DNA of 64,000 nucleotides from Trypanosoma brucei. Taxonomy: Eukaryota. The DNA lies in contig CP000067.1 of the NCBI GenBank assembly GCA_000002445.1, positions 896,001-960,000 of the forward strand, written 5' to 3'. How positions within the stretch are numbered: position 1 is the stretch's first letter; each line of letters starts with the position of its first letter. This document shows, in pieces, positions 28,534 through 64,000 of the stretch. A program made the position numbers and the translations under genes. The notes under the pieces were generated by a model. That model was not told where the DNA came from and ran no database searches. It was given only the letters and a program-made list of their open reading frames with translations.

Positions 28534-29569
28534 CCTTACGGGCTGGGTTGTCGGGCTAAACTACGCACGTCGATCGGATGCACACTCACACGAGTGCTAC
28601 TCCTCCCCCGCCTTGCTTTCGTGTCCCTTAGTTATCGCTCTTGTCTGACGACTTCGATGCTACCTACACACTTGCTAGTAAGCCAGTAACACCTAATTAC
28701 TAAACGAAAGCAAAGAAAGATGGAAGGAAAGGGAAAAAGTAATTAGAGCGGTGCGGTTTCGCGGTTACAGCAAACATGCCAAGAACCTACGGGGCGTCCC
28801 TGCGCAACGGAAGGAACCTCAAACAGGGGAAGCCCAACAGCAACAGCCAGGGTGACGACTTTTACGTATTCACAACATTGTTCCCGCCTAGACAGCTGTG
28901 CCACTGAGTGCAATGACGAGAGAGCAAAGCTACAGGGGTGAAAATATAAACATGCATAAAAGGGGGGATAGAATATTAGAATATTTATCTGAAACGGTGG
29001 CAGGGTGGACAAATCTCAAGCAGCAAACCCAACCCAAATTTCAAGCCACAGTCCATTTCAGGGTGATGGGTGTACATGAACTCTTTAACATGAGATTACG
29101 ACAATTCCTCAGACAGCGTATTTGTTTCCACTCCTTCATTTTCTCCTCTGAACGCATATGTGGAAATATAAGCCATGACAAAGCACGCTTTTTTTAACGT
29201 CAGCCCTCATTACCAGAAAACGGAAACACACATGAACATATCTGCAAATGATGGGAGAGTAGATGGGCGGGGGGAACGAATGGTTGAAGGAGCGAATGTA
29301 TCATCACCGCCGCAAAAAAACAAAAAAAAGACAGCGAAAAGTTGCAATTCAACGAGAGCGGGTGTGGAAAAAATGACCCATCCGGGCCTATTGACTGGGA
29401 GGTTTAACCTGATAAAGGACCCTACCCATGCTGCCATTAACTTAAACTCACTTCGTATAACAAACGATTTCTTCGCATTTCATCACGTCACACGCACTAT
29501 CAAGACCATTCCGTGATTCACACATTGTCGCAGATACAAAAACGTCAGTACCCGACTCCCCGGCCCACA

Positions 29570-30454
29570 TTAGCGAGCTGCAATGATAGCAAAAGAACAT
29601 TGTAACTTCTCGTCGACATTCATGACGGCTGCATCATTGTCAAATTCACCACAATAGTTCGGCGCAGAGAAGATGGTCACCAACTGGCGGTTTGCGAAGA
29701 AGCCGTAACCACGCTCCATCACTTGGTGAGCACGCACAACAAGGTCCATATCCACCATATCAAGGAAGTCAGTTACAATGTCTTCCCCAAACAGGTAACT
29801 CACACCGCGGTCACTCTCCAGGAAACCCTTTACTTCCTCCTCAGGATCTGCCCACAGCAAGTCACAGAGAATACCTTTGTCAGGCACATCCAGCGGGCGT
29901 TCTATTTCATTCACGGCAGCCAACGAAGTCATGTCCGGACTCAGCCCACCATGCATGCAGATGATTTTCTCACCTACAACACAGCATACAGGCATAGTGT
30001 TAAATACATCTGTGAATGCTTTAAACAGTTTGATGTTATAACGTCGCTTTACGTCATCGAAGAAACCGTACATTTTGTTTATGCTCGCACATTCATGATT
30101 ACCGCGAAGGAGAAAGAAATTCTCCGGATACACAATTTTATAACAAAAAAGCAAAGTGATTGTCTCTACGCTGTGTCGGCCACGGTCAACATAGTCACCT
30201 AGAAACAGGTAATTTGAATACGGTGGAAATCCACACTTCTCAAATACGCGCAGCAAGTCGTAGTATTGGCCATGGATATCCCCACAAATCCTCACTGGTG
30301 GCGTGATATCTAGCACAACCGGCTGTGACATGAATACGTCACGAACGGCATTGAGAATTGTCCGTATGTCCTCCTCGCGAATGAGAATTTGCCTTTGAGC
30401 CGTGTTTCCCTTGGCGCTGAGCATCCGCTCCAGCAGTGTCTGTACTAGGGTCAT
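29570..30454 (-). CDS. PP1: PP1 catalytic subunit, array copy 3
   Basis: Same family. Offset by 1921 bp from copy 2. Confidence 0.9.
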
Positions 30455-44043: not shown

Positions 44044-47000
44044 TTAATGCTTTTCCTTATTATTTAAAAAGGAAACCTCGTGTATCTGATCTCCAGGGAC
44101 GTGACAAGCGTTACCCGCATCAATTACAAATGCGGACATAAGCGCTTCAGGGCGATCAGTAATCAGTTTCATCCATTCGTTTCCGTCAAACACCTTAACG
44201 TGACGCGTGATGACCTTCTCCTTCTTGGTGGTGGGATCAGTCCACAACTCACAGTGCTCCCGCAAAAATACCAATTCCTTTTCTTTTGACGCACAGAGTG
44301 ACTCCAATGCGCTGTTTGTACCATTCAGTCCCTTCAATTGAGTTAGTAAGTCAACTATCTCTGCTTCAAGTGTAGCTAATGCAGTTTCTTTTTCAGATGA
44401 TAAAAGGGTCAGTTTTTCCTCTAAATGCTTAACCTTACACTGCAGTGCGCTATTGGCTGAGTCAGCCTCGAGTAGCCGCGCGCTAGTATCCTCGGCCAAC
44501 AACTCCTTCTCCGACAGACGTTGGGTCACCTCCTCTGCGAGCCTCTTATTCTCGGCAACCTTCAGCTCCAGCTCTTCTGCAAGTTTCTCATTCTCGGCAG
44601 CCTTCAGCTCAAGCTCTTCTGCAAGTTTCTCATTCTCGGCAGCCTTCAGCTCCAGCTCTTCTGCAAGCTTCTCATTCTCGGCAGCCTTCAGCTCAAGCTC
44701 TTCTGCAAGTTTCTCATTCTCGGCAACCTTCAGCTCCAGCTCTTCTGCAAGTTTCTCATTCTCGGCAGCCTTCAGCTCAAGCTCTTCTGCAAGTTTCTCA
44801 TTCTCGGCAACCTTCAGCTCAAGCTCTTCTGCAAGCTTCTCATTCTCGGCAGCCTTCAGCTCAAGCTCTTCTGCAAGTTTCTCATTCTCGGCAGCCTTCA
44901 GCTCCAGCTCTTCTGCAAGCTTCTCATTCTCGGCAGCCTTCAGCTCAAGCTCTTCTGCAAGTTTCTCATTCTCGGCAGCCTTCAGCTCAAGCTCTTCTGC
45001 AAGCTTCTCATTTTCGGCAGCCTTCAGCTCAAGCTCTTCTGCAAGCTTCTCATTTTCGGCAACCTTCAGCTCAAGCTCTTCTGCAAGCTTCTCATTCTCG
45101 GCAGCCTTCAGCTCAAGCTCTTCTGCAAGCTTCTCATTTTCGGCAACCTTCAGCTCAAGCTCTTCTGCAAGCTTCTCATTCTCGGCAGCCTTCAGCTCAA
45201 GCTCTTCTGCAAGTTTCTCATTCTCGGCAACCTTCAGCTCAAGCTCTTCTGCAAGCTTCTCATTCTCGGCAGCCTTCAGCTCAAGCTCTTCTGCAAGTTT
45301 CTCATTCTCGGCAACCTTCAGCTCAAGCTCTTCTGCAAGCTTCTCATTCTCGGCAGCCTTCAGCTCAAGCTCTTCTGCAAGCTTCTCATTTTCGGCAGCC
45401 TTCAGCTCAAGCTCTTCTGCAAGTTTCTCATTCTCGGCAGCCTTCAGCTCAAGCTCTTCTGCAAGCTTCTCATTTTCGGCAGCCTTCAGCTCAAGCTCTT
45501 CTGCAAGCTTCTCATTCTCGGCAACCTTCAGCTCAAGCTCTTCTGCAAGCTTCTCATTTTCGGCAGCCTTCAGCTCAAGCTCTTCTGCAAGCTTCTCATT
45601 CTCGGCAACCTTCAGCTCAAGCTCTTCTGCAAGCTTCTCATTCTCGGCAGCCTTCAGCTCAAGCTCTTCTGCAAGTTTCTCATTCTCGGCAGCCTTCAGC
45701 TCAAGCTCTTCTGCAAGTTTCTCATTCTCGGCAGCCTTCAGCTCCAGCTCTTCTGCAAGCTTCTCATTCTCGGCAGCCTTCAGCTCAAGCTCTTCTGCAA
45801 GCTTCTCATTTTCGGCAGCCTTCAGCTCAAGCTCTTCTGCAAGCTTCTCATTCTCGGCAGCCTTCAGCTCAAGCTCTTCTGCAAGTTTCTCATTCTCGGC
45901 AGCCTTCAGCTCAAGCTCTTCTGCAAGTTTCTCATTCTCGGCAACCTTCAGCTCAAGCTCTTCTGCAAGCTTCTCATTTTCGGCAACCTTCAGCTCAAGC
46001 TCTTCTGCAAGTTTCTCATTCTCGGCAGCCTTCAGCTCAAGCTCTTCTGCAAGTTTCTCATTCTCGGCAGCCTTCAGCTCAAGTTCTTCCATGAGTCTTT
46101 GTACCTGAACATTAAGATTCCGGATGTCACTGCGACTTTTGTTATTTTCAAGAACTAGTTGTTCGTTTTCAGCGGTTTTTCTCTGTATCTCCTCCGCCAA
46201 GCGCTCGTTCTGCAGGGTAACTCCGGACCTATCCCTTTCTTCTCTTTCAAGTTCCTCATGCATATTGTGCAGTTGCTCGCTTAGGCTTTGATTTTCTGCC
46301 ATAAGTTGCTCTAATCTGTCGTGGAGATTTTCTCGCTCGTCATTGGCTTGTTGAAGCTGCTGTCGCAACAGATCGTTTTCTTGCTGGAACTGGTTACTTC
46401 GATGCATATGGTCGTTGTACTCATCCAACGTCACCGAAAGCAGTGGTTCACTACTTATTTCGTCTGCGCTAACCATTTCCTGAAACGGCTTGGTTTGCGT
46501 CCCAATGGGTCGTAACGTAGGTTCAAGAGAGCGAACCTTGTGGGCATTTTGCCGTTTCTCTCTGTATGCCATGAGTTCCGCCTCCTGTTTGTCGAACAAC
46601 TCTTCTAGGTTGTTATAATGCTTTCGCAACTCTTCCAGCAATGCAGTTGTCTTGATATGGTCATCGATCTCACCCTCAAGCCTCTGCTGAAGATCAGATA
46701 TTTCCCTATCGCGCGCCTCAATGTGTGCTTGTGCGCTCTTCTCGGCCGCCCTGAGTGCCTCCAACTGTTCATCTAACTGTTCCAGATTCTCTAAGAGTCC
46801 CTCAATTTCCGCCTGTTTCTCTTCCAAGCGTTGAGTCATTTCTGAAAGCCCCTGCTCAGACAGTCTTGATTTCTCCTCCATCTGCCGAAGCTCGGCTTCG
46901 AGCCTCTCACACTCCGCTTCTAACTTTTCCTTTTCTTCCGAAACACCGCTTAACTCTGCCAGAAGGTCGTCCTGGGCGTTGAGAAGATTCTGGCACTGCT

Positions 47001-49122
47001 CCCGCTGCCGCTCTAGCTCCCGTTCAACTTGGTCACAGTGCTCCGTTTGCTCGCGGAGCTCGTCAAGGGTCACGCAGTAAACCGGTTCCGCGGTATCGTC
47101 CCCTCTGAAAGTCGACAAATTGCGCTGTGCACGTATTTGATTCGCCTGGGTTTTTTGGAGTTTCAATAACTCAAGTTCACTCGCCTGGTTATCGGCAAGA
47201 TCCCTAAGCTTTTCAACCAAATCACGCAAACGACCGATCTCAGCATGAAGCTCACCATTTCGCTGTCGCAGCGACTCCTGTTCGCGCATGGTTGATGCTG
47301 TCTGCCGGCGAAACTCCTCGGCGGATTTCTCAAGCGTGTACTGCAGTGAACGGTTCTCGTTATGGATTTTGTCCAGAAGCATAAGCAGGTCTCCTATCTC
47401 GCTTTCATACGCATCCTTATCGCCTACGCGGCCCTTCATAGCAACCTCTTCAATAAACTTGTCGAACGTCATACCGCGGAATGCATGCTCCCTGAGATCA
47501 AATGCGCGGCACACCTCAACAATTGCACGATCCAAACCCTTTTTGGGTTGGTCGACGTCGCAAAGCATCCGATCCATTCCACGGGAAGGAAATTCTTGCA
47601 GCCGCTTATTTATCTCCGCGGCAGTTTGTTTCACTGGGTGTTGAACGTCAAACGACACCTGTAGCTTCTCCGATGTAGCAGTGAACTCAATATTCCTAAT
47701 AGCATCCTCAGGAACATGGCAGGCCGCAGCCTGCTCGGTCCTGAATGTCGACAGAAGCTCCTCTGGCTTGCGTTCAACAACCTTCGACCACTCCCTCCCC
47801 GGATAAGACTTTCTGTGCTTGGTGGTGACGGTGGGTTCGTTCCGGTACATCCAACGCTCATCATGGCTGCTCAGTTCCTTGATAATTTCTTGTAAGTCCT
47901 TAATATTATTTGCAGAATCGCCTCTGGGGGCCTCAACAGACCTTAACCCGACGTCGGTTTCGATTCTTTCACGACGCGGAGCATTTGTCTTGCCTGCGTT
48001 TGTAAACAAACTGAACACGAAACGCTCCTGTAAATTCAAACGCCTTTCTTCAAGTTCGCTCGTGTACATTGAAAGGCAATGAAGCTCGGCCATCGCCTCC
48101 ATGTAGCTGTTAGATAAATGAGAAAAGTGATCATTTATCTGGAGGCGAGTTTGCTCTGCCTTATCGAGTATCAACCCCACTTCATCGTCAGTTAATACGC
48201 AGTCCTGTGCTGAAGGATCAACTCCCACAATGGATATGACGGAGGAGAGGGGAGCCTTAAGCTGCACCGACGTTTTGGTGAATGATGTTAACTGACCTCC
48301 GAATGTCGGCGTCCCTCCCCGTTCGAGCTCCTCCTTCAGCTTCATCACCTTCAAACGGCAGCCCTTCATTCCCGCAATGCAGTTTGCAATGGCATCATTT
48401 TGTTCCTGCACTCGTGTGTCCGTTGTCAGACGGCAGTACGCTTCCTGATACGCTAAAGCACTTAATACCCAGTGATGTAAGCTGCTGATTGCCTCAGAAT
48501 CTCGTGATGCAGCCAGTGACGAAAGACGCTGCTCGTTTAGTGATGAACATATCTCTTCAGCGTTAGGGTACGTTTTCCCAGTGATGTCTGCGCTTATGAA
48601 ATCTGCAATGGCATTCGGCCTCCGGTATTCCATACGAATGTCGTCCCATGTGGAGCAGTTGGTTACTGTCGGGTCGTTTTGTGCCAGCGCGAGCACAGAC
48701 TTGAGAACCTCAACGGCAACTGGAGAGGGGCATGCTTGAGACGTTACTTCCCGCATGTGCACTTCGTCAACGCTCGCCACACGCGCCTTGGCATCCTCAA
48801 ACACGGCGCGTGCGGCAGAAACGCGGTCTTCGTTTTCGCTGCGGATGGCAGCCAGTTTATCACGCGCACTGGAGAGCTGCTCCTGAAACACGCCCATGCG
48901 CTTCATCTCCTTCTGAATTTCGCTGGATATATTGTGCTTCAGCGTCTCGCAGCTACCTTCATTGACTGCCCACTGCTCCACGACAACAACATGTTTGTCG
49001 GAAGAGACGACCGTGCCCAAAGCCCACTGCCAGTGCTCTCCGTTTGCCAAATGATCGAATGCAATAACTTGGCCAGGCTGTAAAGTTAGTGGGTTTTCAC
49101 TGATAACATTCAGAAGAGCCAT
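44044..49122 (-). CDS. FAZ1: Giant coiled-coil repeat protein (1692 aa), FAZ1-like (flagellum attachment zone protein 1)
   Basis: It has a globular N-terminal region, then long coiled-coil, then about 37 tandem 14-aa repeats (ELELKAAENEKLAE / ELELKVAENEKLAE), then a coiled-coil C-terminus. Size and 14-aa repeat architecture match my recollection of T. brucei FAZ1. This attribution is from memory and is not searchable here. Confidence 0.75.
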   Translation of the reverse strand: MALLNVISENPLTLQPGQVIAFDHLANGEHWQWALGTVVSSDKHVVVVEQWAVNEGSCETLKHNISSEIQKEMKRMGVFQEQLSSARDKLAAIRSENEDRVSAARAVFEDAKARVASVDEVHMREVTSQACPSPVAVEVLKSVLALAQNDPTVTNCSTWDDIRMEYRRPNAIADFISADITGKTYPNAEEICSSLNEQRLSSLAASRDSEAISSLHHWVLSALAYQEAYCRLTTDTRVQEQNDAIANCIAGMKGCRLKVMKLKEELERGGTPTFGGQLTSFTKTSVQLKAPLSSVISIVGVDPSAQDCVLTDDEVGLILDKAEQTRLQINDHFSHLSNSYMEAMAELHCLSMYTSELEERRLNLQERFVFSLFTNAGKTNAPRRERIETDVGLRSVEAPRGDSANNIKDLQEIIKELSSHDERWMYRNEPTVTTKHRKSYPGREWSKVVERKPEELLSTFRTEQAAACHVPEDAIRNIEFTATSEKLQVSFDVQHPVKQTAAEINKRLQEFPSRGMDRMLCDVDQPKKGLDRAIVEVCRAFDLREHAFRGMTFDKFIEEVAMKGRVGDKDAYESEIGDLLMLLDKIHNENRSLQYTLEKSAEEFRRQTASTMREQESLRQRNGELHAEIGRLRDLVEKLRDLADNQASELELLKLQKTQANQIRAQRNLSTFRGDDTAEPVYCVTLDELREQTEHCDQVERELERQREQCQNLLNAQDDLLAELSGVSEEKEKLEAECERLEAELRQMEEKSRLSEQGLSEMTQRLEEKQAEIEGLLENLEQLDEQLEALRAAEKSAQAHIEARDREISDLQQRLEGEIDDHIKTTALLEELRKHYNNLEELFDKQEAELMAYREKRQNAHKVRSLEPTLRPIGTQTKPFQEMVSADEISSEPLLSVTLDEYNDHMHRSNQFQQENDLLRQQLQQANDERENLHDRLEQLMAENQSLSEQLHNMHEELEREERDRSGVTLQNERLAEEIQRKTAENEQLVLENNKSRSDIRNLNVQVQRLMEELELKAAENEKLAEELELKAAENEKLAEELELKVAENEKLAEELELKVAENEKLAEELELKAAENEKLAEELELKAAENEKLAEELELKAAENEKLAEELELKAAENEKLAEELELKAAENEKLAEELELKAAENEKLAEELELKAAENEKLAEELELKVAENEKLAEELELKAAENEKLAEELELKVAENEKLAEELELKAAENEKLAEELELKAAENEKLAEELELKAAENEKLAEELELKAAENEKLAEELELKVAENEKLAEELELKAAENEKLAEELELKVAENEKLAEELELKAAENEKLAEELELKVAENEKLAEELELKAAENEKLAEELELKVAENEKLAEELELKAAENEKLAEELELKAAENEKLAEELELKAAENEKLAEELELKAAENEKLAEELELKAAENEKLAEELELKVAENEKLAEELELKAAENEKLAEELELKVAENEKLAEELELKAAENEKLAEELELKAAENEKLAEELELKAAENEKLAEELELKVAENKRLAEEVTQRLSEKELLAEDTSARLLEADSANSALQCKVKHLEEKLTLLSSEKETALATLEAEIVDLLTQLKGLNGTNSALESLCASKEKELVFLREHCELWTDPTTKKEKVITRHVKVFDGNEWMKLITDRPEALMSAFVIDAGNACHVPGDQIHEVSFLNNKEKH
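44509..46085. repeat. 42-bp (14-codon) in-frame tandem repeat, about 37 copies, inside the FAZ1-like CDS
   Basis: Period-42 repetition of ctcggcagccttcagctcaagctcttctgcaagcttctcatt. Variants gcagcc/gcaacc give A/V, and ctcaag/ctccag and aagctt/aagttt are synonymous. Confidence 0.9.
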
Positions 49123-52100
49123 AATTGGAGCACTTCTAAAGCGACTTAATCCGGAGTTCGCGAATCCCTATATCCTTGCGGAAGTGCTATTTTATTTTTT
49201 CCTACCCACTGTTGTTGCTTGACTTGTTTTCCCTCTCCGATGTCGAGGAGAGAAATTTAATTTTACGTAGAGAAAAATGGCATAGGTGTATGGTCACATT
49301 TTTTTCTGTGCGACCGCAGGGGCAGGCAGAGCAAGATGATCCACATCCACCTGTTCCTTTCTTGCAGAACTCCAACCCCGACACAGAAAGGGTTTACAAT
49401 AGATATATCGGTACTGCATCAACTGCTGCAGCTTCCGAAGGAGGTTGCAGGTGTTTACCACAAGTATAAACAAAATAAATATGTTATCGCGTGCAAAAAG
49501 CTGCTTCTTAAACGCGCAAGAAAATAAAGTCCTCTGTTAATCCTTACGCACACCTCGAAGGGGCACAAAGACATGTTACGCAGAACTACGCGAAGAAAGA
49601 CGGTATTGTATGCTATCGCCCTCCCCTATAGCCACGTTAACATAAATAGTGAAACGCTGAAATGGGTTAGTCGTGCAAACGTAACACCCCTCCCGCACAC
49701 ACTCGCTGATCCCTCCTCATATACGCCTTTACTGGGGCGGGTAACGCTGCGCACGTCACTTCACATCCCTTTGCACAATAATCTTGACGCTCTGTTTGGA
49801 CCATGTGCTTTATTTCCGTTACGGAACACTACAAAGATATAAGCACCGAATGAACAGCTGTGAGGGAATCAGTCGAGTATTCAAAAAAAAAAAATGCCCC
49901 TTCCGACTATATAAGAGCAACCACATATTCGTCAATCGATTTGTTCCTTTATACGAAATTTTCTAACTGCAAAGGTAACTACAACAACCTCATTAGTAAA
50001 CAGCTAAACAAAAAATCTACACACAAACGTCGGCACGAGAGTGCCTATGAATTGAAACAAAGAAATTACAGAATACACACCCTGACACGCAAAATACGCT
50101 CGCTCGCTGACAGCGTAGGTAGGCGGGTAAAGGACAAACCACTGTAAATATTTTATTCTTAATACCTTTTCACACACGCTGAACAAAAATGTGATAACAT
50201 CGGTAACTGTCCGCTTTAGCTTGTGTTTTTCTTTAAGATACCAGTCTCTAGTAACAGAAAGCGGTAGCTGTCCTGATTATCCTTGTGAACTACAAAATCA
50301 ACGCCATTTCGTTCCTGTAAATGGTCAGATAATGTCCACAACAGTACCAGATGGTATAATATTTGATAAAATGGCACGCAATGCGACAACTTCATGGCAT
50401 CAGACAAGCAGGACAAATCAAATACTTCCACTTCGCCATCGATGCAGATTCTGTGGCGGAAGGAGCACGGCAGCACAACGGCAAGTATTAATGCTGCGCA
50501 TTCAACGACGTGCTGTTACTTGCACTCCTCATTTATTACAACAATAGGAAATACAGAACACCACCATAACCCCTCGTAAGCGTAGTGTTTTAACTTGGAG
50601 AAATCCCACACCAAAAGATACCTGGATATTCGGAAGTTGCTATAAAAACAAACACTCTATGGGTCCAACTAAGTGTATCGTGACGATCATTTTCATTTTT
50701 TTTTTCCTAATCCAGTGAGATATGCTTCTGCTTCCCTTGATCATATGTGTTGCTTCATTTTACTCCCTGGGTTTATTACTGTTCTATGCTTGATAGCCGT
50801 TTCACCTTCGGCACAGCGAAGCATTGAGAACCGGAACGGATATAAAAGCCACTTGCGCTTGGAACGAATCATTTTCGTGAGCACCGGTGATAATAAAAGT
50901 GAATGCGGCAAACTGATGGGCATAGCAGTGACCGCCACAAAAGCAACTATAGCACGACCCCTTCTCAACATGTAAATATGGTGTCCCCCTACATAGCCCG
51001 GTGTTTTGGTGCAAGTATCCGAACGACAAAGAGTAATCAATTTCCCGTTTTTCACTACAAAAATACAAGAGAACATAAGCTAAAAATACCGGATCTCACT
51101 GTATGAATAGAAACACAATAACGTGCAAACGTGCAATGCCTTGCCAACGCGTAGCTTATGTAAAGTCATCCATTTATTTACGCAACATGAAACACACACC
51201 CTGATGTTAAAAACACAGAGGTGGGACAAACCCCCCTCCTGCGGGTACGCTGTGGTAAGGAAATAAAGACATCAGACAACGTACTGTTAATTAAAGTTAA
51301 ACGAAAGTTCATTCCGTCGCCGACTGTCAGCTCAACGCATATGTATTTTTCCAAGCAGAATCATCACAGTTTTTTTCTTGATATGGATACCATTTTATAC
51401 AATAACGGCATTAACCACGTCTTTCTCAAATGACATTGCTTCGCTATCCCAACACTAACATCTGGCAACCACTCTATGTATACTCTGTTTCACATCTACT
51501 GCGTCCTGACTCTGTGATGCAGATTATAAACCTTGGTACCGCAAAATAGAAGCTTTAATAGCACTGAACCACATAGTTACTCGAAACTACCCAACGCTTT
51601 GAACCACCGCATGCAAAAGCCGGAATGAATCAGGACATGCGTAGCATCAAGAAGTAAACATAAGCTCACGGAAGTGAAATTCAACTATTTATCGCATTGG
51701 GATAACTCGAACAATGCTCCGTTAGAGACCCACCGTATGTTTCAGTTGAACGAATACTAAAAACGCTCGGTCTCTGCTTGAAAAATTTGAAGTCCCTTCT
51801 ATATCAATAACTAAGTGGTCGCGCTTCAATAGTCGTGCGCTCCAAAAGAAAGAAGGAGAGCTAGAAATTTTTCGGTGAGTATAGTACAAGAAATTTGCAA
51901 AGAGGCATGAGTAAATGAACTTCGGGGGAATGTTTGAGCAACGAGAGTACCGTATCTGAATGCGAGGTAAGACTCAGTGTACTTGTTAGTGGCGCTTACC
52001 ATCTTCACCTGCCTTGTTGACTAGTGCTGAAAAACGAGAGGAATAAAAGTGCCGCGGGCATAAAGCCAAAAGGCAAGCCAACTTGGTAATCTATTTATTT

Positions 52101-55100
52101 TTTTAACGGAGGTATCAATAATAACTTCAACAGAGGTTGAAACGAGGATACTTAGTGTGGAAAGGGCTGATGAATACATCTAGGACGCGAACCGGTAAGT
52201 ACCTTAATTTCGGGTAAATGATAATAATAATAATAACCGTATTTCTCCAGTAGTCATACCATAAACCGAGCACATGCATAATGAGTTGTTAAAACACGCA
52301 CACTATCTTCATTGTCACCAGTGTATGACACCCAACGCTGATCAAGCGCGTAGGCAACATATTACAAACGGGTGTTAAGTTGTATGAAATATGGCACTGT
52401 TTCAAATGCTACCCCCTTCTCAACAGCGTCAGTACACCTCGCACTGCAGTCGGACGAAGGCACAGATGTGACACCCAACGTCACGGTGTTTCAACAAGAC
52501 GCTTGCAGAGCGTGCAGAAAAGTGATTCCTTTGCGGCTGTGCCTATGCGCGCACCCCATTACCATCAGTACTCCCGAACAGGAACCCACCTTCCGAGACG
52601 ACAACAACGGCTGGTATAAAGATCAACGACCATGCACTTGCCAGCGCGCAGCGGACGCAACTCATAGACCCATAAAAGCATGAATTCAATAAAACAATAG
52701 CAACACCAATGTGAAAACGTCTGCGATAGCGCCGCCACCTTCATTCACCCGGTCCACTGCACTGCGCACCGCTCCCACACCGATAGGTGCCAGAGGCATC
52801 GATGAACGACTACTTCGCAGCACCTCCAAAACGGTTTTAGACAGAAATTAGCAGGGCCGCCGGCTCGCCCGGGCACTAAAGCAATCCCTTAAACTACCTG
52901 AAACCTGGCGGAAGACCCCACGGAAACGCACGGGCGGAGGCCTACAGAGAAAGGCGCCCCGCTACGCACAGGCGCCCTCGCCGGCTCACAAAAAGGAAAC
53001 CATGCGTACCTCCCACTCACGAGACACACCACAACCGCCGAACCCCATACCGTGTGGACGTCCCCCGCGCGCAGGGGGAACCACGGGTTTACTGCTGCAG
53101 TCCCGTCACCCCAGCAGCGAACACGCGGATCCCTCGCGATAGCCGAAAACAAAGCAGAGGGAAATGACTCGCGTCTGTCGGGGCCGCGGACGCCAGCGCC
53201 TCAACAGGTCAACTTTGGGCAGAACCTCCTCAGGTCGGGGACGTCAAGAGCCCCCACGTGGCACCGGGGTTGAGTACATCATTAAAGGGGAGGCCAAACG
53301 ACTGTTCGCACCCTGTCATCAGGGAGACATGGCAGCTCGCCGGCTGTTGGTTGTTGGGGTAATGGGAGAAGTGGAAACGATATTGGCTCCCTGATGTGGG
53401 AACCGATATCTTTGTTGTCCCTTGCACGCTCTTGCATGTTCCCGTGGGCGTGTAGGGGCAACTCCCGTTGTGGAGAAGATATCAGAGGCAACTGTAATTC
53501 ACCTACTGGCGTATGGTAAGGGACTGTCTCTTCAAATTTTTTTGGGGGAAAAGGAAGGCTTCTTTTGCGTTTTGAAGGGGACATACATCCACGCGACGAA
53601 GAAGTGAACTGCAAAATGATGCCTGTATTTCCGGAGCATTGATATAGCAAACCCTTCTAGGGGTTGACGAGTGTCAAAATCGGCAGAAAATAGCACAGGT
53701 AGAATGCAAGGCTCGTAACAAAATGGGGACTGGAAGAGTGCCAGCTAAACCGAAACTCGCTCAGGAGTAGTGGAACACACTCGTGTCAATATTTTTCTGT
53801 GGCCAAATCTGGAATCACCTGACCACTACTGGAAGGTTGCATGGAAGAGATAGTTTGAAGGTTTGCAGAAAGGCAATGGAGTAGCAATTCGACGAAGGAG
53901 GAAACTTAAATACCCCACATATCACGCGGAATGCTGCCTTGGAATAGGATTCCGCAGAATATGAGGGATAAATGTTATTGCCGCCTGAAGGAATAATAGT
54001 CACTTATAGGGATAGGGGTTTACGATGGGAATTAGGCAGTTCCTTCAGCTGTTGGAAGTTTTGAAGCAAATAGACAAGACAGAAAAAACAATGAACTTCC
54101 TGAGGAATCAGAGCAGGCAATGCAAAAGGCACTGACCGAAGCGCAGAGTAGAACACGATACAAATGTAGATGGTGCGATTATTAGCGTGTTCATGTGTCG
54201 GGGCCCATTCTGCACACAAGGAACAAACACTCGGTGGAAGTTGGAATGAAAAAAGATACAAATGATAAAGCATCTCCGGCATCAAAGACAGCTCCAAAGA
54301 CCCTCCAACGCTCGCAGTACAAAATGCGTGCAACAAAGTGACCTCACTGAACTCATGCAGCGGAAAGGCGAATGCAAAATAGGAAAAAAAGCACAACACT
54401 GTAAAAAGTGGGTACTACTCATCTTCCCTAAAACCGTCACAACACCCCTCCCCAGGAAGCGCTGCGTAGAGAAAGCGGTCGAAAATGCCGCAAACAGATG
54501 GTTGCCGTTTCGCATGCAACTGGCACGTTTCCATGCAAGCTATTTCAACCAAAGGATTTGGAGCTAAACACAGAGGAGCGTCAACAGACTCAAGATAACT
54601 GTCAAAGGAATTCACACTGAAACGACCATGGGTTGGGAAAAAGGAAAAGGGGGACTACTTCGCCGACGGCCAAGCCTACCTACATTCCGCCACGCCATAC
54701 TTTGAAGAACCCGGCGTGTGAGTGCTGCTTGCGGCCGAGGGCACACAACTCATTGGCGCAAAAGGTGACAGTCACGCGGCGGTGTGGAACCGCACGATTC
54801 GATCAGATACTAGGGGAATAACTTTACTGCGGCGCCATGTCGGTAAGTAGCTTCGGGCCAACAAAAAACTGGCGATAGCACCAAGTGTGCGTGCCAACAT
54901 CGGGAGCTCACACCTGATGCGTCACCCCTCAAGGGAAGTGCGGGGCGCACCAATGGATGTCATAGAACTTCACCGAGCAGTGATGGTCAACATCTCCTCG
55001 ATATGAGTGTGTGGAACGTACGGGGTGAGCCCATTCGCCAACAGCTTCTCTGCATTCGTAGACCAAATCCAAACGGAGAAATTTTCTCAGGACAGCCGAC

Positions 55101-55974
55101 GAACTCTGACGGAAGAATTGGAACTGGTGGAACGCGCACGAATTGGAGAAATGTCTGAGGTGCGGCATCCGTGTTGCAACCGCAGGGGTTGTTCCTTGAA
55201 TCACAGCCACACCACAACACTCAACACCTCAACTTACTAAACTCGATAAGGGGATTGCGAGGTGTCATCGCTCATTGAATGGGGGAACTGGTCGACATGC
55301 AGAGGTAGCTTCCAGGCCGCATGACAAATGAAGGGTGTTTCGTGCCGTTCTGAGAGCACAAGGCTCCGGTCCGTTGCAACTGGTGCGTCAAGAAAGTGTA
55401 CGCGTCGGGGCCATTCAACCTCCTGGCGGCTATATGAGACGGTGCTCCAAAACCGACTACCGGCAGGAGAAACATTTCGTTGATCCCTACGCGCCCCGGG
55501 CAACAGATTACTTATCCTCGCCCTTAAGGCATTCGACGTGAGTTTATGGAATGGAATCGTACCTGCTGCACGGGAGAGTTATCAATAATTTCCATACAGA
55601 AACACCCTAAGAAGGTGGAGCGTTTGGATGTCCACGAGGCGGTGAAAGCGATGAGTTGCGCGCGCAAAGCCATCGAGAACATCGTTGGTAATGGAATTGG
55701 GGACTTTATGAGGGAGGGGCCCACACTAGAACCGGGATTTCGGCCGGGTCGCCCCACGCTAAGGCTGCTTCAGCGCTTCCAGATGGCCCTTGGTCACCCG
55801 TCGCCGTCGCACATGGGAGCGGCATTCATAGTTTACGCGAATGCCTTGGATGTCACACGGAAAGCGGCTGATGGTTTTATTTTACAGCAGAATGAAAGGA
55901 ACAAAAGTTGGCAAAACACTGTTAAACAGCCGGACGCTTGCAAGAGGCATAAAGCAACTGCATCAGAGCGCACT

Positions 55975-58211
55975 GTGCCCCTCAGCCTCGGACTCGCAGA
56001 GCCAACTCTTGGAAGCATTTCCGCTATCACATGACGGCTTTTTTGCGGATAATTTGGCGCTATCGGCGCGATGCACGAAGAGGGACCCCGAAGACCGCAC
56101 ACCGCAGGGCAGCCCCGGCGTTGTGATACAATGGCAGCAAAAGTGACTTATGTACGCCCGCACGCCGGTGACGAAATGCAAACTGCTCAGTTACATTGAA
56201 CACTTATCGTCAATGTAACATCACGGTGGGGCTCGGGCTGGGGTTGGAAAAGTACCGAAGATGTTTTGGGACGGCGCGCTGCGCAAACACAGCGAATAGC
56301 AAGCCGCAGGGCGCTGAAAATAGAAACCGTTTGGGCGACGGCGTATCACCCAGATGAGGCGTTGCGTGCTTTACACTTCCGGTTTTTACAATTACGTGAC
56401 ACGTGCAGAGCTGATGTGTGGCATTAGTGCGTCTCAGAAGGTATTCGAGAGGCGACCGGAGCGGAGCGGCACAAAGACAGCCAAACCATCGAGGATGTAT
56501 CGCACGCGCACTATACAACCCCACCCGTAACTTCGTGCCGGGACGGAAGCCGCTGATCCAAACTTCTCCAACGCCTTCCTTTTCAATGCAACAGGGCCTT
56601 CCGCGGGAAGATAAGGCCCGTGTGCGCAAACTGTCCCGGAGAGGCTTAGATCGGCGAATGGACATTCTTAAACCAGAGGTCCGGCCAGACCCTCAGCCCA
56701 AGTGAGGACGAAAAAACGATACATCAGGTCAACAAAAGCGGCGGCGCACTTGCACGTGGGCGCTGTGTAGGACCCCTTGCACTGGCGGTGGGCCTGCGAA
56801 AGGCACCGAATCCCTTCCTAATTCACAAGGCGGTGCTGCCCAGCCTCTCGATATACCCGCTTTCGTTCTCCACCATGCCGGAGGCGAGCGCAGTTACCAT
56901 TACTGACCCGTCCCTGCACAAATTGCGGTGGTCAGCTGTGACAATACCGGGCAGGAACAATTGCATTAGACCACAGTTTGTACTCCCCTGCTGCGGCGTG
57001 GCATTGAACGAAGGCGCGCGGCGAAATTGCGAAGAATGTCGTTGGCATGTCACAGTTGCCCGACCGGGGGTTTGCAGACACCGCGGCCTATTCGAAGCGT
57101 TTGTTGTGATCTGGGGAAATATACTCGGGGGCCCACCGGGACACATTTCACGACCAAATGCAAAGAATGGATGCGCGGGCCGACAGCGTTGGCTGGCACT
57201 GCTGGTGGTCGCCGCACAAAATCAACTCATGGGTGGCCCGTTCCACCGGTGGCAGGAACCGTAATTTCCACTGGCGACGCTTGCACCCCAACCAATCCCA
57301 ACGACCACGACCTCGGTGTTAACAACCTTCTTTCACGCTGAGGGACAAAAAAGGTGTACTAATTGCGGTGCGATATGGCAAACACCGAACGAGTGCAGTG
57401 ACGAATATGGCGGCGGATCTTCTGGCGTAGGCGCGTTCTTTTGAAAAATGAAATGCGGTGATGCGTCGCGTCCAGCGTATGATCCATCAGAACCCATGCA
57501 ACCGCGGCCCGTACTGGCGCCTTCGCGAGTATCAACAACAGCAAGCCTCAACACTAAACATTCAAAGGCGTCACGACGGCACCACCTTCGCAGCCACATT
57601 TGTGATACAAAGCAATCGGTTCGCGAGCTAAACAGGTCTTGAATTGAAAAGCAGGATGCAAGATGTAAAGCAATAACTACAAGACAGCGCATCTACCGCA
57701 AGAAAACATTGTTTTACCCAACAAGCTACCATGCCCCGGAGGCAACATAGCCAACACCAAACGACACCGCCATCCTGCAGAAGTTCTGCTTCTCCGGTCG
57801 CCTTGAATAACTTCAACTCACCACAAAACGACTCCAGCGCTTGACGCCACTCTTAGCTACGACTATTGAAAAACAGGGTAAACAGGAACAAAAATCATAC
57901 AGCACCCCCATTAACAAGAGAATAGACAGAAAAAACTAAGCAACAAACAAAGAAGTGGAAAAGTAGGCAAGTCAGCAAGTCTAACATCTAGCATCGCCTC
58001 CTCACCCTTCAACAAACACACACCCAAAAGACAAAACAATGCACGAAAAATATTCACATCAGCAAAAGAAAAAAAACCAAAAATACAAAATAAAGAAAAA
58101 AACAACATTTATCAGCGGTGAAGAGAACGGTACAACTAAAGAAAAAACAAGAATAAAAAAAGACACAATCAACAAACACAAAACATATTAAAACCAGCGA
58201 CAAATGGGTAT
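55975..58211. repeat. Inverted repeat, left arm (at least 2.2 kb) flanking the 147-bp array
   Basis: Reverse complement of 61776..64000. Paired ORF translations show 98-99% identity (57333..57692 minus = 62286..62645 plus; 56210..56665 minus = 63313..63768 plus). The arm start is set by the window end on the partner arm. Confidence 0.85.
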
Positions 58212-61200
58212 GATTGTGCAACACTGTTTTTGCACAATCATACGCATAAACGCGTATTTGACGTGAAAATACGCAATAGTGCACAATTTGCACACAAACA
58301 TGCCACATTGTGCATGTTATGCAAGAATGCGTGTTTTGCACCAAAACACCTTACATATTGCATTGCAACACTGTTTTTGCGCAATCATACGCATGAACGC
58401 GTATTTGACGTGAAAATACGCAATAGTGCACAATTTGTGAACAAACATGCCACATTGTGCATGTTATGCAAGAATGCGTGTTTTGCACCAAAACACCTTA
58501 CATATTGCATTGCAATACTGTTTTTGCACAATCATACGCATAAACGCGTATTTGACGTGAAAATACGCAATAGTGCACAATTTGCACACAAACACGCCAC
58601 ATTGTGCATGTTATGCAAGAATGCGTGTTTTACACCAAAACACCTTACATATTGCATTGCAACACTGTTTTTGCGCAATCATACGCATGAACGCGTATTT
58701 GACGTGAAAATACGCAATAGTGCACAATTTGCACACAAACATGCCACATTGTGCATGTTATGCAAGAATGCGTGTTTTACACCAAAACACCTTACATATT
58801 GCATTGCAACACTGTTTTTGCACAATCATACGCATAAACGCGTATTTGACGTGAAAATACGCAATAGTGCACAATTTGCACACAAACATGCCACATTGTG
58901 CATGTTATGCAAGAATGCGTGTTTTGCACCAAAACACCTTACATATTGCATTGCAACACTGTTTTTGCGCAATCATACGCATAAACGCGTATTTGACGTG
59001 AAAATACGCAATAGTGCACAATTTGCACACAAACATGCCACATTGTGCATGTTATGCAAGAATGCGTGTTTTACACCAAAACACCTTACATATTGCATTG
59101 CAATACTGTTTTTGCACAATCATACGCATAAACGCGTATTTGACGTGAAAATACGCAATAGTGCACAATTTGCACACAAACACGCCACATTGTGCATGTT
59201 ATGCAAGAATGCGTGTTTTACACCAAAACACCTTACATATTGCATTGCAACACTGTTTTTGCGCAATCATACGCATGAACGCGTATTTAACGTGAAAATA
59301 CGCAATAGTGCACAATTTGCACACAAACACGCCACATTGTGCATGTTATGCAAGAATGCGTGTTTTACACCAAAACACCTTACATATTGCATTGCAACAC
59401 TGTTTTTGCGCAATCATACGCATGAACGCGTATTTGACGTGAAAATACGCAATAGTGCACAATTTGCACACAAACACGCCACATTGTGCATGTTATGCAA
59501 GAATGCGTGTTTTACACCAAAACACCTTACATGTTGCATTGCAACACTGTTTTTGCGCAATCATACGCATAAACGCGTATTTGACGTGAAAATACGCAAT
59601 AGTGCACAATTTGCACACAAACACGCCACATTGTGCATGTTATGCAAGAATGCGTGTTTTACACCAAAACACCTTACATGTGGCATTGCAACACTGTTTT
59701 TGCGCAATCATACGCATAAACGCGTATTTGACGTGAAAATACGCAATAGTGCACAATTTGCACACAAACACGCCACATTGTGCATGTTATGCAAGAATGC
59801 GTGTTTTACACCAAAACACCTTACATATTGCATTGCAACACTGTTTTTGCGCAATCATACGCATGAACGCGTATTTGACGTGAAAATACGCAATAGTGCA
59901 CAATTTGCACACAAACACGCCACATTGTGCATGTTATGCAAGAATGCGTGTTTTACACCAAAACACCTTACATGTTGCATTGCAACACTGTTTTTGCGCA
60001 ATCATACGCATAAACGCGTATTTGACGTGAAAATACGCAATAGTGCACAATTTGCACACAAACATGCCACATTGTGCATGTTATGCAAGAATGCGTGTTT
60101 TGCACCAAAACACCTTACATATTGCATTGCAACACTGTTTTTGCACAATCATACGCATAAACGCGTATTTGACGTGAAAATACGCAATAGTGCACAATTT
60201 GCACACAAACATGCCACATTGTGCATGTTATGCAAGAATGCGTGTTTTACACCAAAACACCTTACATATTGCATTGCAATACTGTTTTTGCACAATCATA
60301 CGCATAAACGCGTATTTGACGTGAAAATACGCAATAGTGCACAATTTGTGAACAAACATGCCACGTTGTGCATGTTATGCAAGAATGCGTGTTTTACACC
60401 AAAACACCTTACATGTTGCATTGCAACACTGTTTTTGCGCAATCATACGCATAAACGCGTATTTGACGTGAAAATACGCAATAGTGCACAATTTGCACAC
60501 AAACATGCCACATTGTGCATGTTATGCAAGAATGCGTGTTTTGCACCAAAACACCTTACATATTGCATTGCAACACTGTTTTTGCACAATCATACGCATA
60601 AACGCGTATTTGACGTGAAAATACGCAATAGTGCACAATTTGCACACAAACATGCAACATTGTGCATGTTATGCAAGAATGCGTGTTTTACACCAAAACA
60701 CCTTACATATTGCATTGCAACACTGTTTTTGCGCAATCATACGCATGAACGCGTATTTGACGTGAAAATACGCAATAGTGCACAATTTGCACACAAACAT
60801 GCCACATTGTGCATGTTATGCAAGAATGCGTGTTTTGCACCAAAACACCTTACATATTGCATTGCAACACTGTTTTTGCACAATCATACGCATAAACGCG
60901 TATTTGACGTGAAAATACGCAATAGTGCACAATTTGTGAACAAACATGCCACATTGTGCATGTTATGCAAGAATGCGTGTTTTGCACAAAAACACCTTAC
61001 ATGTTGCATTGCAACACTGTTTTTGCGCAATCATACGCATGAACGCGTATTTGACGTGAAAATACGCAATAGTGCACAATTTGTGAACAAACATGCCACA
61101 TTGTGCATGTTATGCAAGAATGCGTGTTTTGCACCAAAACACCTTACATGTTGCGTTGCAACACTGTTTTTGCGCAATCATACGCATGAACGCGTATTTG

Positions 61201-61780
61201 ACGTGAAAATACGCAATAGTGCACAATTTGCACACAAACATGCCACATTGTGCATGTTATGCAAGAATGCGTGTTTTGCACCAAAACACCTTACATATTG
61301 CATTGCAACACTGTTTTTGCGCAATCATACGCATGAACGCGTATTTGACGTGAAAATACGCAATAGTGCACAATTTGTGAACAAACATGCAACGTTGTGC
61401 ATGTTATGCAAGAATGCGTGTTTTGCACCAAAACACCTTACATATTGCATTGCAACACTGTTTTTGCGCAATCATACGCATGAACGCGTATTTGACGTGA
61501 AAATACGCAATAGTGCACAATTTGTGAACAAACATGCAACGTTGTGCATGTTATGCAAGAATGCGTGTTTTGCACCAAAACACCTTACATATTGCATTGC
61601 AACACTGTTTTTGCACAATCATACGCATGAACGCGTATTTGACGTGAAAATACGCAATAGTGCACAATTTGTGAACAAACATGCCACATTGTGCATGTTA
61701 TGCAAGAATGCGTGTTTTGCACAAAAACACCTTACATATTGCATTGCAACACTGTTTTTGCACAATCATACCCATTTGTC
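58200..61780. repeat. 147-bp AT-rich satellite, about 24 tandem copies (CIR147-like candidate centromeric repeat)
   Basis: Exact 147-bp periodicity (e.g. tacgcat[a/g]aacgcg at 58241 and 58388) with a small set of recurring unit variants. A 1229-aa open frame is an artefact of 147 = 3 x 49. Confidence 0.9.
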
Positions 61781-64000
61781 TCTGGTTTCAATATGTTTTG
61801 TGTTTGTTGATTGTGTCTTTTTTTATTCTTGTTTTTTCTGTAGTTGTCCCGTTCTCTTCACCGCTGATAGATGTTTTTTTTTCTTTATTTTGTATTTTTG
61901 GTTTTTTTTCTTTTGCTGATGTGAATATTTTTCGTGCATTGTTTTGTCTTTTGGGTGTGCGTTTGTTGAAGGGTGAGGAGGCGATGCTAGATGTTAGACT
62001 TGCTGACATGCCGACTTTTCCACTTCTTTGTTTGTTGCTTAGTTTTTTCTGTCTATTCTCTTGTTAATGGGGGTGCTGTATGATTTTGGTTCCTGTTTAC
62101 CCTGTTTTTCAGTAGTCGTAGCTAAGAGTGGCGTCAAGCGCTGGAGTCGTTTTGTGGTGAGTTGAAGTTATTCAAGGCGACCGGAGAAGCAGAACTTCTG
62201 CAGGATGGCGGTGTCGTTTGGTGTTGGCTATGTTGCCTCCGGGGCATGGTAGCTTGTTGGGTAAAACAATGTTTTCTTGCGGTAGATGCGCTGTCTTGTA
62301 GTTATTGCTTTACATCTTGCATCCTGCTTTTCAATTCAAGACCTGTTTAGCTCGCGAACCGATTGCTTTGTATCACAAATGTGGCTGCGAAGGTGGTGCC
62401 GTCGTGACGCCTTTGAATGTTTAGTGTTGAGGCTTGCTGTTGTTGATACTCGCGAAGCCGCCAGTACGGGCCGCGGTTGCATGGGTTCTGATGGATCATA
62501 CGCTGGACGCGACGCATCACCGCATTTAATTTTTCAAAAGAACGCGCCTACGCCAGAAGATCCGCCGCCATATTCGTCACTGCACTCGTTCGGTGTTTGC
62601 CATATCGCACCGCAATTAGTACACCTTTTTTGTCCCTCAGCGTGAAAGAAGGTTGTTAACACCGAGGTCGTGGTCGTTGGGATTGGTTGGGGTGCAAGCG
62701 TCGCCAGTGGAAATTACGGTTCCTGCCACCGGTGGAACGGGCCACCCATGAGTTGATTTTGTGCGGCGACCACCAGCAGTGCCAGCCAACGCTGTCGGCC
62801 CGCGCATCCATTCTTTGCATTTGGTCGTGAAATGTGTCCCGGTGGGCCCCCGAGTATATTTCCCCAGATCACAACAAACGCTTCGAATAGGCCGCGGTGT
62901 CTGCAAACCCCCGGTCGGGCAACTGTGACATGCCAACGACATTCTTCGCAATTTCGCCGCGCGCCTTCGTTCAATGCCACGCCGCAGCAGGGGAGTACAA
63001 ACTGTGGTCTAATGCAATTGTTCCTGCCCGGTATTGTCACAGCTGACCACCGCAATTTGTGCAGGGACGGGTCAGTAATGGTAACTGCGCTCGCCTCCGG
63101 CATGGTGGAGAACGAAAGCGGGTATATCGAGAGGCTGGGCAGCACCGCCTTGTGAATTAGGAAGGGATTCGGTGCCTTTCGCAGGCCCACCGCCAGTGCA
63201 AGGGGTCCTACACAGCGCCCACGTGCAAGTGCGCCGCCGCTTTTGTTGACCTGATGTATCGTTTTTTCGTCCTCACTTGGGCTGAGGGTCTGGCCGGACC
63301 TCTGGTTTAAGAATGTCCATTCGCCGATCTAAGCCTCTCCGGGACAGTTTGCGCACACGGGCCTTATCTTCCCGCGGAAGGCCCTGTTGCATTGAAAAGG
63401 AAGGCGTTGGAGAAGTTTGGATCAGCGGCTTCCGTCCCGGCACGAAGTTACGGGTGGGGTTGTATAGTGCGCGTGCGATACATCCTCGATGGTTTGGCTG
63501 TCTTTGTGCCGCTCCGCTCCGGTCGCCTCTCGAATACCTTCTGAGACGCACTAATGCCACACATCAGCTCTGCACGTGTCACGTAATTGTAAAAACCGGA
63601 AGTGTAAAGCACGCAACGCCTCATCTGGGTGATACGCCGTCGCCCAAACGGTTTCTATTTTCAGCGCCCTGCGGCTTGCTATTCGCTGTGTTTGCGCAGC
63701 GCGCCGTCCCAAAACATCTTCGGTACTTTTCCAACCCCAGCCCGAGCCCCACCGTGATGTTACATTGACGATAAGTGTTCAATGTAACTGAGCAGTTTGC
63801 ATTTCGTCACCGGCGTGCGGGCGTACATAAGTCACTTTTGCTGCCATTGTATCACAACGCCGGGGCTGCCCTGCGGTGTGCGGTCTTCGGGGTCCCTCTT
63901 CGTGTATCGCGCCGATAGCGCCAAATTATCCGCAAAAAAGCCGTCATGTGATAGCGGAAATGCTTCCAAGAGTTGGCTCTGCGAGTCCGAGGCTGAGGGG
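61776..64000. repeat. Inverted repeat, right arm; runs off the window end
   Basis: See left arm. The true extent is unknown. Confidence 0.85.

What the first reader, a model, noticed from the sequence alone, without database searches (positions are those of the whole stretch)
58200..61780. About 24 tandem copies of a 147-bp AT-rich satellite with higher-order variant structure; candidate centromeric (CIR147-like) repeat
The periodicity is exactly 147 bp. Units fall into a few recurring subtypes distinguished by linked substitutions: ataaac/atgaac, tttgcacacaaaca/tttgtgaacaaaca, catgcc/cacgcc, gttttgcacc/gttttacacc and catattgc/catgttgc. These interleave rather than form a gradient, suggesting higher-order repeat organisation or frequent unequal exchange. 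A 147-bp AT-rich repeat at a gene-free boundary of a directional cluster matches what is known for centromere-associated arrays on several T. brucei megabase chromosomes. There the arrays are tens of kb, so this one may be collapsed in assembly. Whether this particular locus binds kinetochore proteins cannot be read from sequence.
Basis: partly seen in the sequence, partly recalled or inferred. Interest (0 to 1): 0.7.

Follow-up and report, generated by a model that had tools for sequence, protein, structure and literature searches.

The report
Known trypanosome chromosome 4 centromere repeat
The 147-bp tandem repeat is real and is the already published centromere repeat (CIR147) of Trypanosoma brucei chromosome 4, shown here much shorter than in the living parasite because the reference assembly collapsed it.

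Summary
There are 24.2 head-to-tail copies of a 147-bp, 61% AT unit at 58217-61775, 97% alike, with no indels. All copies lie on the + strand.

Window ORFs are exact matches to T. b. brucei TREU927 proteins on the 1.59-Mb contig that carries FAZ1 (Tb927.4.3740), which is chromosome 4. The 15-mer used to target canonical CIR147 occurs in 23 of 24 units. The literature describes this same 3.5-3.6 kb array. It has been mapped by etoposide/topoisomerase-II cleavage, is bound by KKT2/KKT3 in ChIP-seq, yields DCL2-dependent siRNAs, and measures about 70 kb by restriction mapping (33 and 55 kb in the Lister 427 long-read assembly).

The higher-order-repeat idea is not supported as a regular pattern. 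No single lag stands out. I found only local similarity and small duplications of 3-4 units, and the unit order in a collapsed assembly is unreliable anyway.

One detail goes beyond the finding. The array lies between near-identical inverted arms of at least 2.24 kb, the published "head-to-head DIREs". The left junction carries a 14-nt inverted CIR147 fragment that forms a perfect hairpin. This suggests an inverted duplication that broke inside the array.

The parts
58217..61771 (+). CIR147 centromeric satellite: 24 full 147-bp units (58217-61744) plus a 27-nt partial 25th unit (61745-61771), all in one orientation
   Evidence: TRF. Unit dissection and the TALE 15-mer in 23 of 24 units. Sub-repeat autocorrelation at shifts 48 and 29. 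Sequence read directly.
58208..58221 (-). 14-nt inverted CIR147 fragment (reverse complement of unit positions 14-27) at the left array junction. It overlaps the first TGCAA of the array, giving 5 nt of microhomology.
   Evidence: Sequence read directly. Alignment of the left flank with the reverse complement of the right flank.
58208..58243 (.). Perfect 14-bp stem / 8-nt loop palindrome at the left junction, made of the inverted fragment plus positions 14-27 of the first unit
   Evidence: DNA fold gives -19 kcal/mol, z = -6.2, and 0 of 200 shuffles fold as well.
55978..58221 (.). Left arm of the long inverted repeat flanking the array. The outer end is unknown because the partner arm runs off the window. 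Published as a DIRE (degenerate ingi/L1Tc-related element).
   Evidence: the repeat finder I1/I2. 8 mismatches in 2125 nt. 5 further mismatches and 1 indel in the inner 119 nt. 'Head-to-head DIREs' in PMC1868937.
61758..64000 (.). Right arm of the long inverted repeat, cut off by the window end
49123..55977 (.). Gene-poor stretch between FAZ1 and the verified part of the inverted repeat. It may belong partly to the arm or the DIRE.
   Evidence: No ORF over 162 aa. No Pfam domain in any of the six frames of 52.3-58.2 kb.
44044..49122 (-). FAZ1 (Tb927.4.3740, Q585H6), the last gene of the minus-strand directional cluster next to the centromere. It anchors the window to chromosome 4.
   Evidence: Exact protein match. 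The gene id co-occurs with FAZ1 in papers.

Best explanation
This is the centromeric CIR147 satellite of Trypanosoma brucei brucei TREU927 chromosome 4, as represented in the reference assembly. In the cell the array is roughly 20 times longer, about 70 kb. According to the literature, it is the platform on which the kinetoplastid kinetochore assembles (KKT2 and KKT3 are the constitutive, DNA-proximal components), and it is the site of topoisomerase-II action on sister chromatids. Also from the literature, RNA polymerase II transcribes it at a low level on both strands, and the resulting double-stranded RNA is diced by nuclear DCL2 into AGO1-bound siRNAs. What the sequence shows here is the identity of the repeat, its chromosome and position, its single orientation, its 48/30-bp sub-repeat make-up, its pattern of variants, and its flanking near-identical inverted arms. 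I infer that the variant pattern comes from unequal exchange or local multi-unit duplication rather than a fixed higher-order repeat. I also infer that the inverted arms arose by an inverted segmental duplication whose breakpoint lay inside a CIR147 unit, joined at the 5-nt TGCAA/TTGCA microhomology.
For: TRF array. TALE target 15-mer of consensus CIR147 in 23 of 24 units. Exact TREU927 proteins on the 1,590,432-bp contig, including FAZ1 = Tb927.4.3740. Chromosome 4 array listed as 3.6 kb in GeneDB and 70 kb by mapping. Etoposide cleavage at this locus and 'head-to-head DIREs either side of a 3.5 kb AT-rich element'. KKT2/KKT3 ChIP-seq on the chromosome 4 array. DCL2-dependent siRNAs and transcription of both strands. 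H3.V control of CIR147 siRNAs. Lister 427 v12 centromere 4A/4B of 33/55 kb with period 148. Sub-repeat shifts 48 (z 4.6) and 29 (z 3.6), matching the published 48/30-bp sub-repeats. Inverted arms and junction hairpin.
Against: I could not align the unit to the full published CIR147 consensus, because it is only in figures. Sequence identity therefore rests on one 15-mer plus the identity of the locus. Published periods for chromosome 4 are 149 bp and 148 bp, against exactly 147 bp here. No domain search confirmed the DIRE nature of the arms. Kinetochore binding, cleavage and siRNA data come from papers and were not recomputed on these coordinates.
Confidence: 0.96

Rival explanations
1. The array has a true alpha-satellite-like higher-order repeat: a fixed multimer of distinct 147-bp variants, itself repeated.
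For: Some identical units recur at short lags: 1=5 and 3=7 at lag 4; 9=12, 13=16 and 18=21 at lag 3. Column 18 alternates A/G through units 1-8.
Against: No single lag is favoured. Lags 1-5 are all slightly more alike than permuted orders (p 0.01-0.08), and lags of 6 or more are not. Similarity simply decays with distance (Mantel r 0.26, p 0.0025). Only 3.6 kb of about 70 kb is represented, so the unit order in this assembly is not trustworthy. Obado et al. saw no ordered gradient.
Confidence: 0.1
2. The inverted-repeat-plus-short-array structure is an assembly or cloning artefact. The real locus might carry the flank on one side only, or might be a long palindromic array with units in both orientations, like the 177-bp cores of minichromosomes, collapsed by shotgun assembly.
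For: The array is known to be collapsed about 20-fold. Shotgun reads from the two arms are nearly indistinguishable. Long palindromes are unstable in E. coli clones (general knowledge). This inverted repeat is missing from the list of 7 long inverted repeats in TREU927.
Against: The arms differ at 13 positions plus 1 indel, so they are two separate sequences rather than one sequence used twice. The left and right junctions are different, specific sequences. Obado et al. drew the head-to-head DIREs independently and did restriction mapping across the region.
Confidence: 0.12
3. The array encodes a repetitive protein, since a 1229-aa ORF (58230-61919, +) runs through all 24 units.
For: One of the six frames has no stop codon across the whole array, and 147 is divisible by 3.
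Against: 20% of shuffled units have at least one open frame, so this is expected by chance. No related protein was found among 5.8 billion clusters. The exact product is not on record as a called gene. The Pfam hits are artefacts of summing over repeats, with no single stretch passing. The locus is a silenced, siRNA-producing satellite.
Confidence: 0.01

Closest known systems
CIR147 / class III centromeric repeats of T. brucei chromosomes 4, 5 and 8 (Obado 2007; Patrick 2009; Tschudi 2012; Rabuffo 2024)
   Same: This is that repeat, at the published chromosome 4 locus. The unit length, AT-richness, 48/30-bp sub-repeats, TALE target 15-mer, 3.6-kb size in the reference and flanking head-to-head elements all agree.
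   Different: Nothing of substance differs. The period here is exactly 147 bp, whereas papers quote 149 and 148 bp for chromosome 4.
Human alpha-satellite higher-order repeats
   Same: A tandem AT-rich satellite of about nucleosome length that underlies a regional centromere, with variants shaped by unequal exchange.
   Different: There is no fixed multimeric higher-order period. The array is far smaller. The kinetochore is the unconventional KKT type without CENP-A.
Inverted-repeat-flanked centromeres of Schizosaccharomyces pombe (imr/otr) and RNAi-linked pericentric repeats
   Same: The centromere core lies between near-identical inverted arms, and the centromeric repeats are transcribed and processed into siRNAs.
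   Different: Here the satellite itself is the centre and the arms are degenerate retroelement sequence. No functional role of the arms or of RNAi in T. brucei centromere function has been shown.
[quoted passage not shown]
   Same: A tandem satellite in the same organism, associated with an inversion point and bound by KKT proteins.
   Different: The unit is different (177 against 147 bp, unrelated target sequences). In this window all 24 units point the same way, and only a 14-nt fragment is inverted.

Membership tests
CIR147 centromeric repeat (T. brucei chr 4/5/8) | Tandem array with a unit of about 147 bp | tested here: met
   Period 147, 24.2 copies, 97% matches, no indels
CIR147 centromeric repeat (T. 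brucei chr 4/5/8) | Sequence matches the canonical CIR147 consensus | tested here: met
   The published 147R-TALE target TTGACGTGAAAATAC is present once in 23 of 24 units, + strand only. The full-length consensus is in figures only and could not be aligned.
CIR147 centromeric repeat (T. brucei chr 4/5/8) | Chromosome-internal position on chromosome 4, 5 or 8, between directional gene clusters and next to DIRE/ingi elements | tested here: met
   Exact TREU927 chromosome 4 proteins. A minus-strand cluster ends at FAZ1, followed by a gene-poor 9 kb. The DIRE identity of the flanks comes from the literature only and was not confirmed by Pfam.
CIR147 centromeric repeat (T. brucei chr 4/5/8) | [quoted passage not shown] | tested here: met
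   60.8% AT. Circular autocorrelation peaks at shifts 48 (z 4.6) and 29 (z 3.6), above the 95th percentile of shuffle maxima.
CIR147 centromeric repeat (T. brucei chr 4/5/8) | Kinetochore protein (KKT2/KKT3) occupancy and etoposide-induced topoisomerase-II cleavage | not testable with these tools
   Published for this chromosome 4 locus: PMC3978658, PMC12975129, PMC1868937
CIR147 centromeric repeat (T. brucei chr 4/5/8) | Source of DCL2-dependent, AGO1-bound siRNAs | not testable with these tools
   Published for CIR147 as a class: PMC3447711, PMC4721609
Higher-order repeat (HOR) satellite | Units a fixed number n of positions apart are markedly more alike than neighbouring units | tested here: not met
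   Mean differences at lags 1-5 are 3.7-4.05, all similar, against a permuted mean of 4.74. No lag stands out, and similarity decays with distance.
Palindromic satellite core (177-bp minichromosome type) | Array switches orientation at an internal inversion point | tested here: not met
   All 24 units are on the + strand. Only 14 nt at the left edge are inverted. Collapse of the assembly means this cannot be excluded for the real 70-kb array.

The most novel reading that the evidence does not exclude
The chromosome 4 centromere may be built as a large palindrome. In this reading, near-identical arms of at least 2.24 kb, kept alike by gene conversion, were created by a fold-back or template-switch event inside the CIR147 array, at the TGCAA/TTGCA microhomology that left the 14-bp hairpin at 58208-58243. 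The inverted arms would then matter functionally, for example by bounding the kinetochore domain or by seeding the double-stranded RNA that DCL2 dices. That would be analogous to the inverted-repeat-flanked centromeres of fission yeast and Candida. This inverted repeat is not among the 7 long inverted repeats catalogued for TREU927.
Probability: 0.08. Interest if true: 0.45.

Novelty: already known. Interest (0 to 1): 0.1.

Why it matters
The result confirms that a reader working from sequence alone correctly recognised a centromere satellite and correctly suspected assembly collapse. For biology it adds almost nothing. The locus has been mapped, ChIP-profiled, sized and re-assembled in at least five papers. 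The only new detail is the fine anatomy of the array/flank junctions: a 14-nt inverted unit fragment, 5-nt microhomology, and arm divergence that rises towards the array. This hints at how the flanking inverted duplication arose, and it could be checked cheaply against existing long-read assemblies.

Tried and rejected
1. I tried to read beyond base 64000 and to fetch the same locus from other assemblies. The look-up of encoding contigs has no TREU927 positions: the arm ORF, the array ORF and FAZ1 are all 'not on record'. The 169-aa neighbour gene returned loci from T. b. gambiense DAL972, T. b. equiperdum IVM-t1 and T. equiperdum OVI. These reach only to window position ~52500, short of the array. 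The DAL972 111-aa ORF that would have allowed a further step differs from the window by one residue.

2. I searched 5.8 billion protein clusters with the translation of the array ORF, hoping to pull CIR147 arrays out of other assemblies. Nothing scored.

3. I ran Pfam on six-frame translations of 52.3-58.2 kb to confirm that the arms are DIRE (reverse transcriptase or endonuclease). There were no hits except one sub-threshold C2H2 finger at E 0.045.

4. Rfam and tRNA scans of the whole window found nothing.

5. I looked in PMC3359990 for a CIR147 probe or primer sequence as a second sequence check. None is in the text.

6. I rejected the coding-repeat reading of the 1229-aa ORF.

7. I rejected a regular higher-order repeat.
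Full report
**Observation**

Tandem Repeats Finder reports one long array in the flagged interval, at 58217-61775. It has period 147, 24.2 copies, 97% matches, no indels and score 6544. Reading the sequence and cutting it into 24 units gives these figures:
- 18 distinct units
- mean pairwise identity 96.8%
- 15 variable columns out of 147
- all units in the same orientation

The array is 39.2% GC, against 48.9% for the whole window. The description is accurate, and an array like this cannot arise by chance.

**Where the window comes from**

Ten window ORFs were looked up by exact sequence. Seven are in the collection, and six of them are identical to T. brucei brucei TREU927 proteins on a 1,590,432-bp contig. 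These include FAZ1 (Q585H6, 44044-49122, minus strand) and several PP1 phosphatase paralogues. The seventh is a 169-aa membrane protein shared by four Trypanozoon genomes. FAZ1 is Tb927.4.3740, so the window is chromosome 4.

Almost all long ORFs from 1 to 49122 are on the minus strand. FAZ1 is the last gene before the array. The 9 kb between them has no ORF over 162 aa and no Pfam domain in any frame of 52.3-58.2 kb.

**What the repeat is**

The eLife 2026 TALE study designed its 147R-TALE against TTGACGTGAAAATAC 'within the consensus CIR147 repeat'. It showed that the TALE and KKT2 co-occupy the arrays on chromosomes 4, 5 and 8. That 15-mer occurs once in 23 of the 24 units here, on the + strand only.

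The unit's circular autocorrelation peaks at shifts of 48 (z 4.6) and 29 (z 3.6). [quoted passage not shown]

The published record for this locus is as follows:
- Echeverry et al. list the chromosome 4 centromeric array in the TREU927 database sequence as 3.6 kb (954159..957772) and measure it as about 70 kb by long-range restriction mapping.
- Obado et al. map etoposide-induced topoisomerase-II cleavage on chromosome 4 to this region. [quoted passage not shown]
- Akiyoshi and Gull show KKT2 and KKT3 ChIP-seq enrichment on the AT-rich arrays of chromosomes 1, 2 and 4-8, with chromosome 4 among the examples shown.
- Tschudi et al. show that CIR147 gives DCL2-dependent, AGO1-bound siRNAs and that RNA polymerase II transcribes both strands.
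- Reynolds et al. show that H3.V restrains those siRNAs.
- The ultra-long-read Lister 427 v12 assembly has chromosome 4 centromeres of 33,158 and 54,643 bp with period 148.

The array is CIR147. It is a kinetochore-bound centromere. The 24 copies are a collapsed remnant of an array roughly 20 times longer.

**Higher-order structure**

I tested this directly. Mean differences between units at lags 1 to 5 are 3.7-4.05, against 4.74 for permuted orders (p 0.01-0.08 for each lag). Lags of 6 or more are no better than chance, and no single lag stands out. Difference rises with separation (Mantel r 0.26, p 0.0025).

Identical units recur at lag 4 (1=5, 3=7), lag 3 (9=12, 13=16, 18=21) and lag 1 (22=23). 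Some variants sit in blocks, for example column 85 C in units 7-12 and column 122 G in units 18-24. Apart from the CAC->TGA triple at columns 75-77, linkage between variant columns is weak and does not survive correction for multiple tests.

This is what local multi-unit duplication and unequal exchange would produce. It is not a fixed higher-order repeat. Because only about 5% of the real array is represented, the order of units in this assembly should not be over-interpreted.

**Surroundings: the inverted arms**

The array lies between the arms of a long inverted repeat. By my alignment the arms are 55978-58221 and 61758-64000. The right arm is cut by the window end, so 2.24 kb is a minimum length.

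The arms differ at 13 positions and one 1-nt indel, so they are two real copies rather than one sequence used twice. Divergence rises towards the array:

| Part of the arm | Length | Differences |
|---|---|---|
| Outer part | 1.47 kb | 1 mismatch |
| Middle part | 650 nt | 7 mismatches |
| Last part, next to the array | 119 nt | 5 mismatches + 1 indel |

These arms correspond to the published head-to-head DIREs. I could not confirm a retroelement origin from protein domains.

The junctions are informative:
- On the right, the array ends in a partial unit (positions 1-27) followed by CCATTTGTC.
- On the left, the flank ends in the reverse complement of that junction, ACAAATGG + GTATGATTGTGCAA. 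This is an inverted copy of unit positions 14-27. It then runs straight into the forward array, sharing TGCAA.
- The left junction is therefore a perfect 14-bp stem / 8-nt loop palindrome (58208-58243; -19 kcal/mol, z -6.2).

My inference is that the inverted arms were made by one inverted segmental duplication after the array already existed. Its breakpoint lay inside a CIR147 unit, and the join used the 5-nt inverted microhomology TGCAA…TTGCA that every unit carries. This would be a fold-back or template-switch event rather than two independent retroelement insertions.

This inverted repeat is not among the seven long inverted repeats catalogued for TREU927; I do not know why. Given the collapsed array, an assembly artefact cannot be ruled out without long reads.

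**Mechanism**

The following steps are shown in the literature. The array is the site of KKT kinetochore assembly and of topoisomerase-II action. It is transcribed on both strands at a low level and feeds the nuclear RNAi pathway.

The following remain inferred or unknown. Different chromosomes use unrelated repeats, so the sequence itself may not be required. It is also unknown whether the inverted arms or the siRNAs contribute to centromere function.

**Rivals**

- A coding reading of the 1229-aa open frame through the array is rejected. 20% of shuffled units have an open frame. No homologue exists among 5.8 billion clusters. The Pfam 'hits' are artefacts of summing over repeats.
- A regular higher-order repeat is not supported.
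- An assembly artefact certainly explains the array's length. It possibly, though less likely, explains the inverted-arm structure.

**Verdict**

Interest is low. The junction anatomy is a small addition that could be checked against existing long-read assemblies.

Noticed in passing
window 55978-58221 and 61758-64000: Near-identical inverted arms of at least 2.24 kb flank the array, with 13 mismatches and 1 indel. The right arm runs off the window. This inverted repeat is not in the published list of 7 long inverted repeats of TREU927, although Obado 2007 drew 'head-to-head DIREs' here.
   Followed up: partly
window 58208-58243: The left array junction is a perfect 14-bp stem / 8-nt loop palindrome. 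It is made of an inverted 14-nt CIR147 fragment joined to the array at a TGCAA/TTGCA microhomology (-19 kcal/mol, z -6.2). This looks like the scar of a fold-back or template-switch inversion inside the array.
   Followed up: yes
window 55978-58221 vs 61758-64000: Divergence between the two arms rises towards the array: 1 mismatch in the outer 1.47 kb, 7 in the next 650 nt, and 5 plus an indel in the last 119 nt. The cause is unknown. Weaker gene conversion near the array or mutation-prone A-rich tracts are possibilities.
   Followed up: no
window 58230-61919 (+): One reading frame is open through all 24 units, giving a 1229-aa ORF. 20% of shuffled units give an open frame, no homologues exist, and the Pfam hits (Crust_neurohorm, DUF6727, PIGA) are repeat-summed artefacts with no single passing stretch.
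   Followed up: yes
window 44530-46089 (inside FAZ1, 44044-49122, minus strand): There are 37 copies of a 42-bp coding repeat (14-aa unit LELKAAENEKLAEE, with A/V variants) at 95% identity. FAZ1 is 1692 aa here and 1748 aa in T. b. gambiense DAL972, so the repeat number is polymorphic.
   Followed up: no
window 17574-30454 (minus strand): This is a cluster of tandem gene duplicates. Two identical-length EF-1 beta genes lie at 19105-19890 and 21162-21947, each with a GGGGCAGCAGCG repeat. Three 294-aa PP1 phosphatase genes sit at a 1921-bp spacing (25728, 27649, 29570), with further PP1 paralogues at 17574 and 22599.
   Followed up: partly
protein P0013 (DAL972 CBH10658.1), homologue of window 22599-23228: A 209-aa protein that clusters at 90% identity or more with PP1 phosphatases is named 'translation elongation factor 1-beta, putative' in the DAL972 NCBI record. 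This is probably a label carried over from the neighbouring EF-1 beta gene.
   Followed up: no
window ~54153-54230 (+): There is a sub-threshold C2H2 zinc-finger-like match (E 0.045, 13.9 bits against a cut-off of 27) with the pattern C-x2-C-x12-H-x4-H. It is interrupted by a stop codon in the x12 spacer. It could be a remnant of an ingi/L1Tc-type ORF, but the evidence is too weak to count.
   Followed up: no
window 58217-61775: The period here is exactly 147 bp with no indels. Papers quote 149 bp (Obado 2007) and 148 bp (Tb427v12) for the chromosome 4 array. This is a minor discrepancy, possibly due to strain or software.
   Followed up: no
window 8574-9482 (minus strand): An amastin-family surface glycoprotein gene (Pfam PF07344, E 3.7e-22) lies in the same directional cluster.
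   Followed up: no
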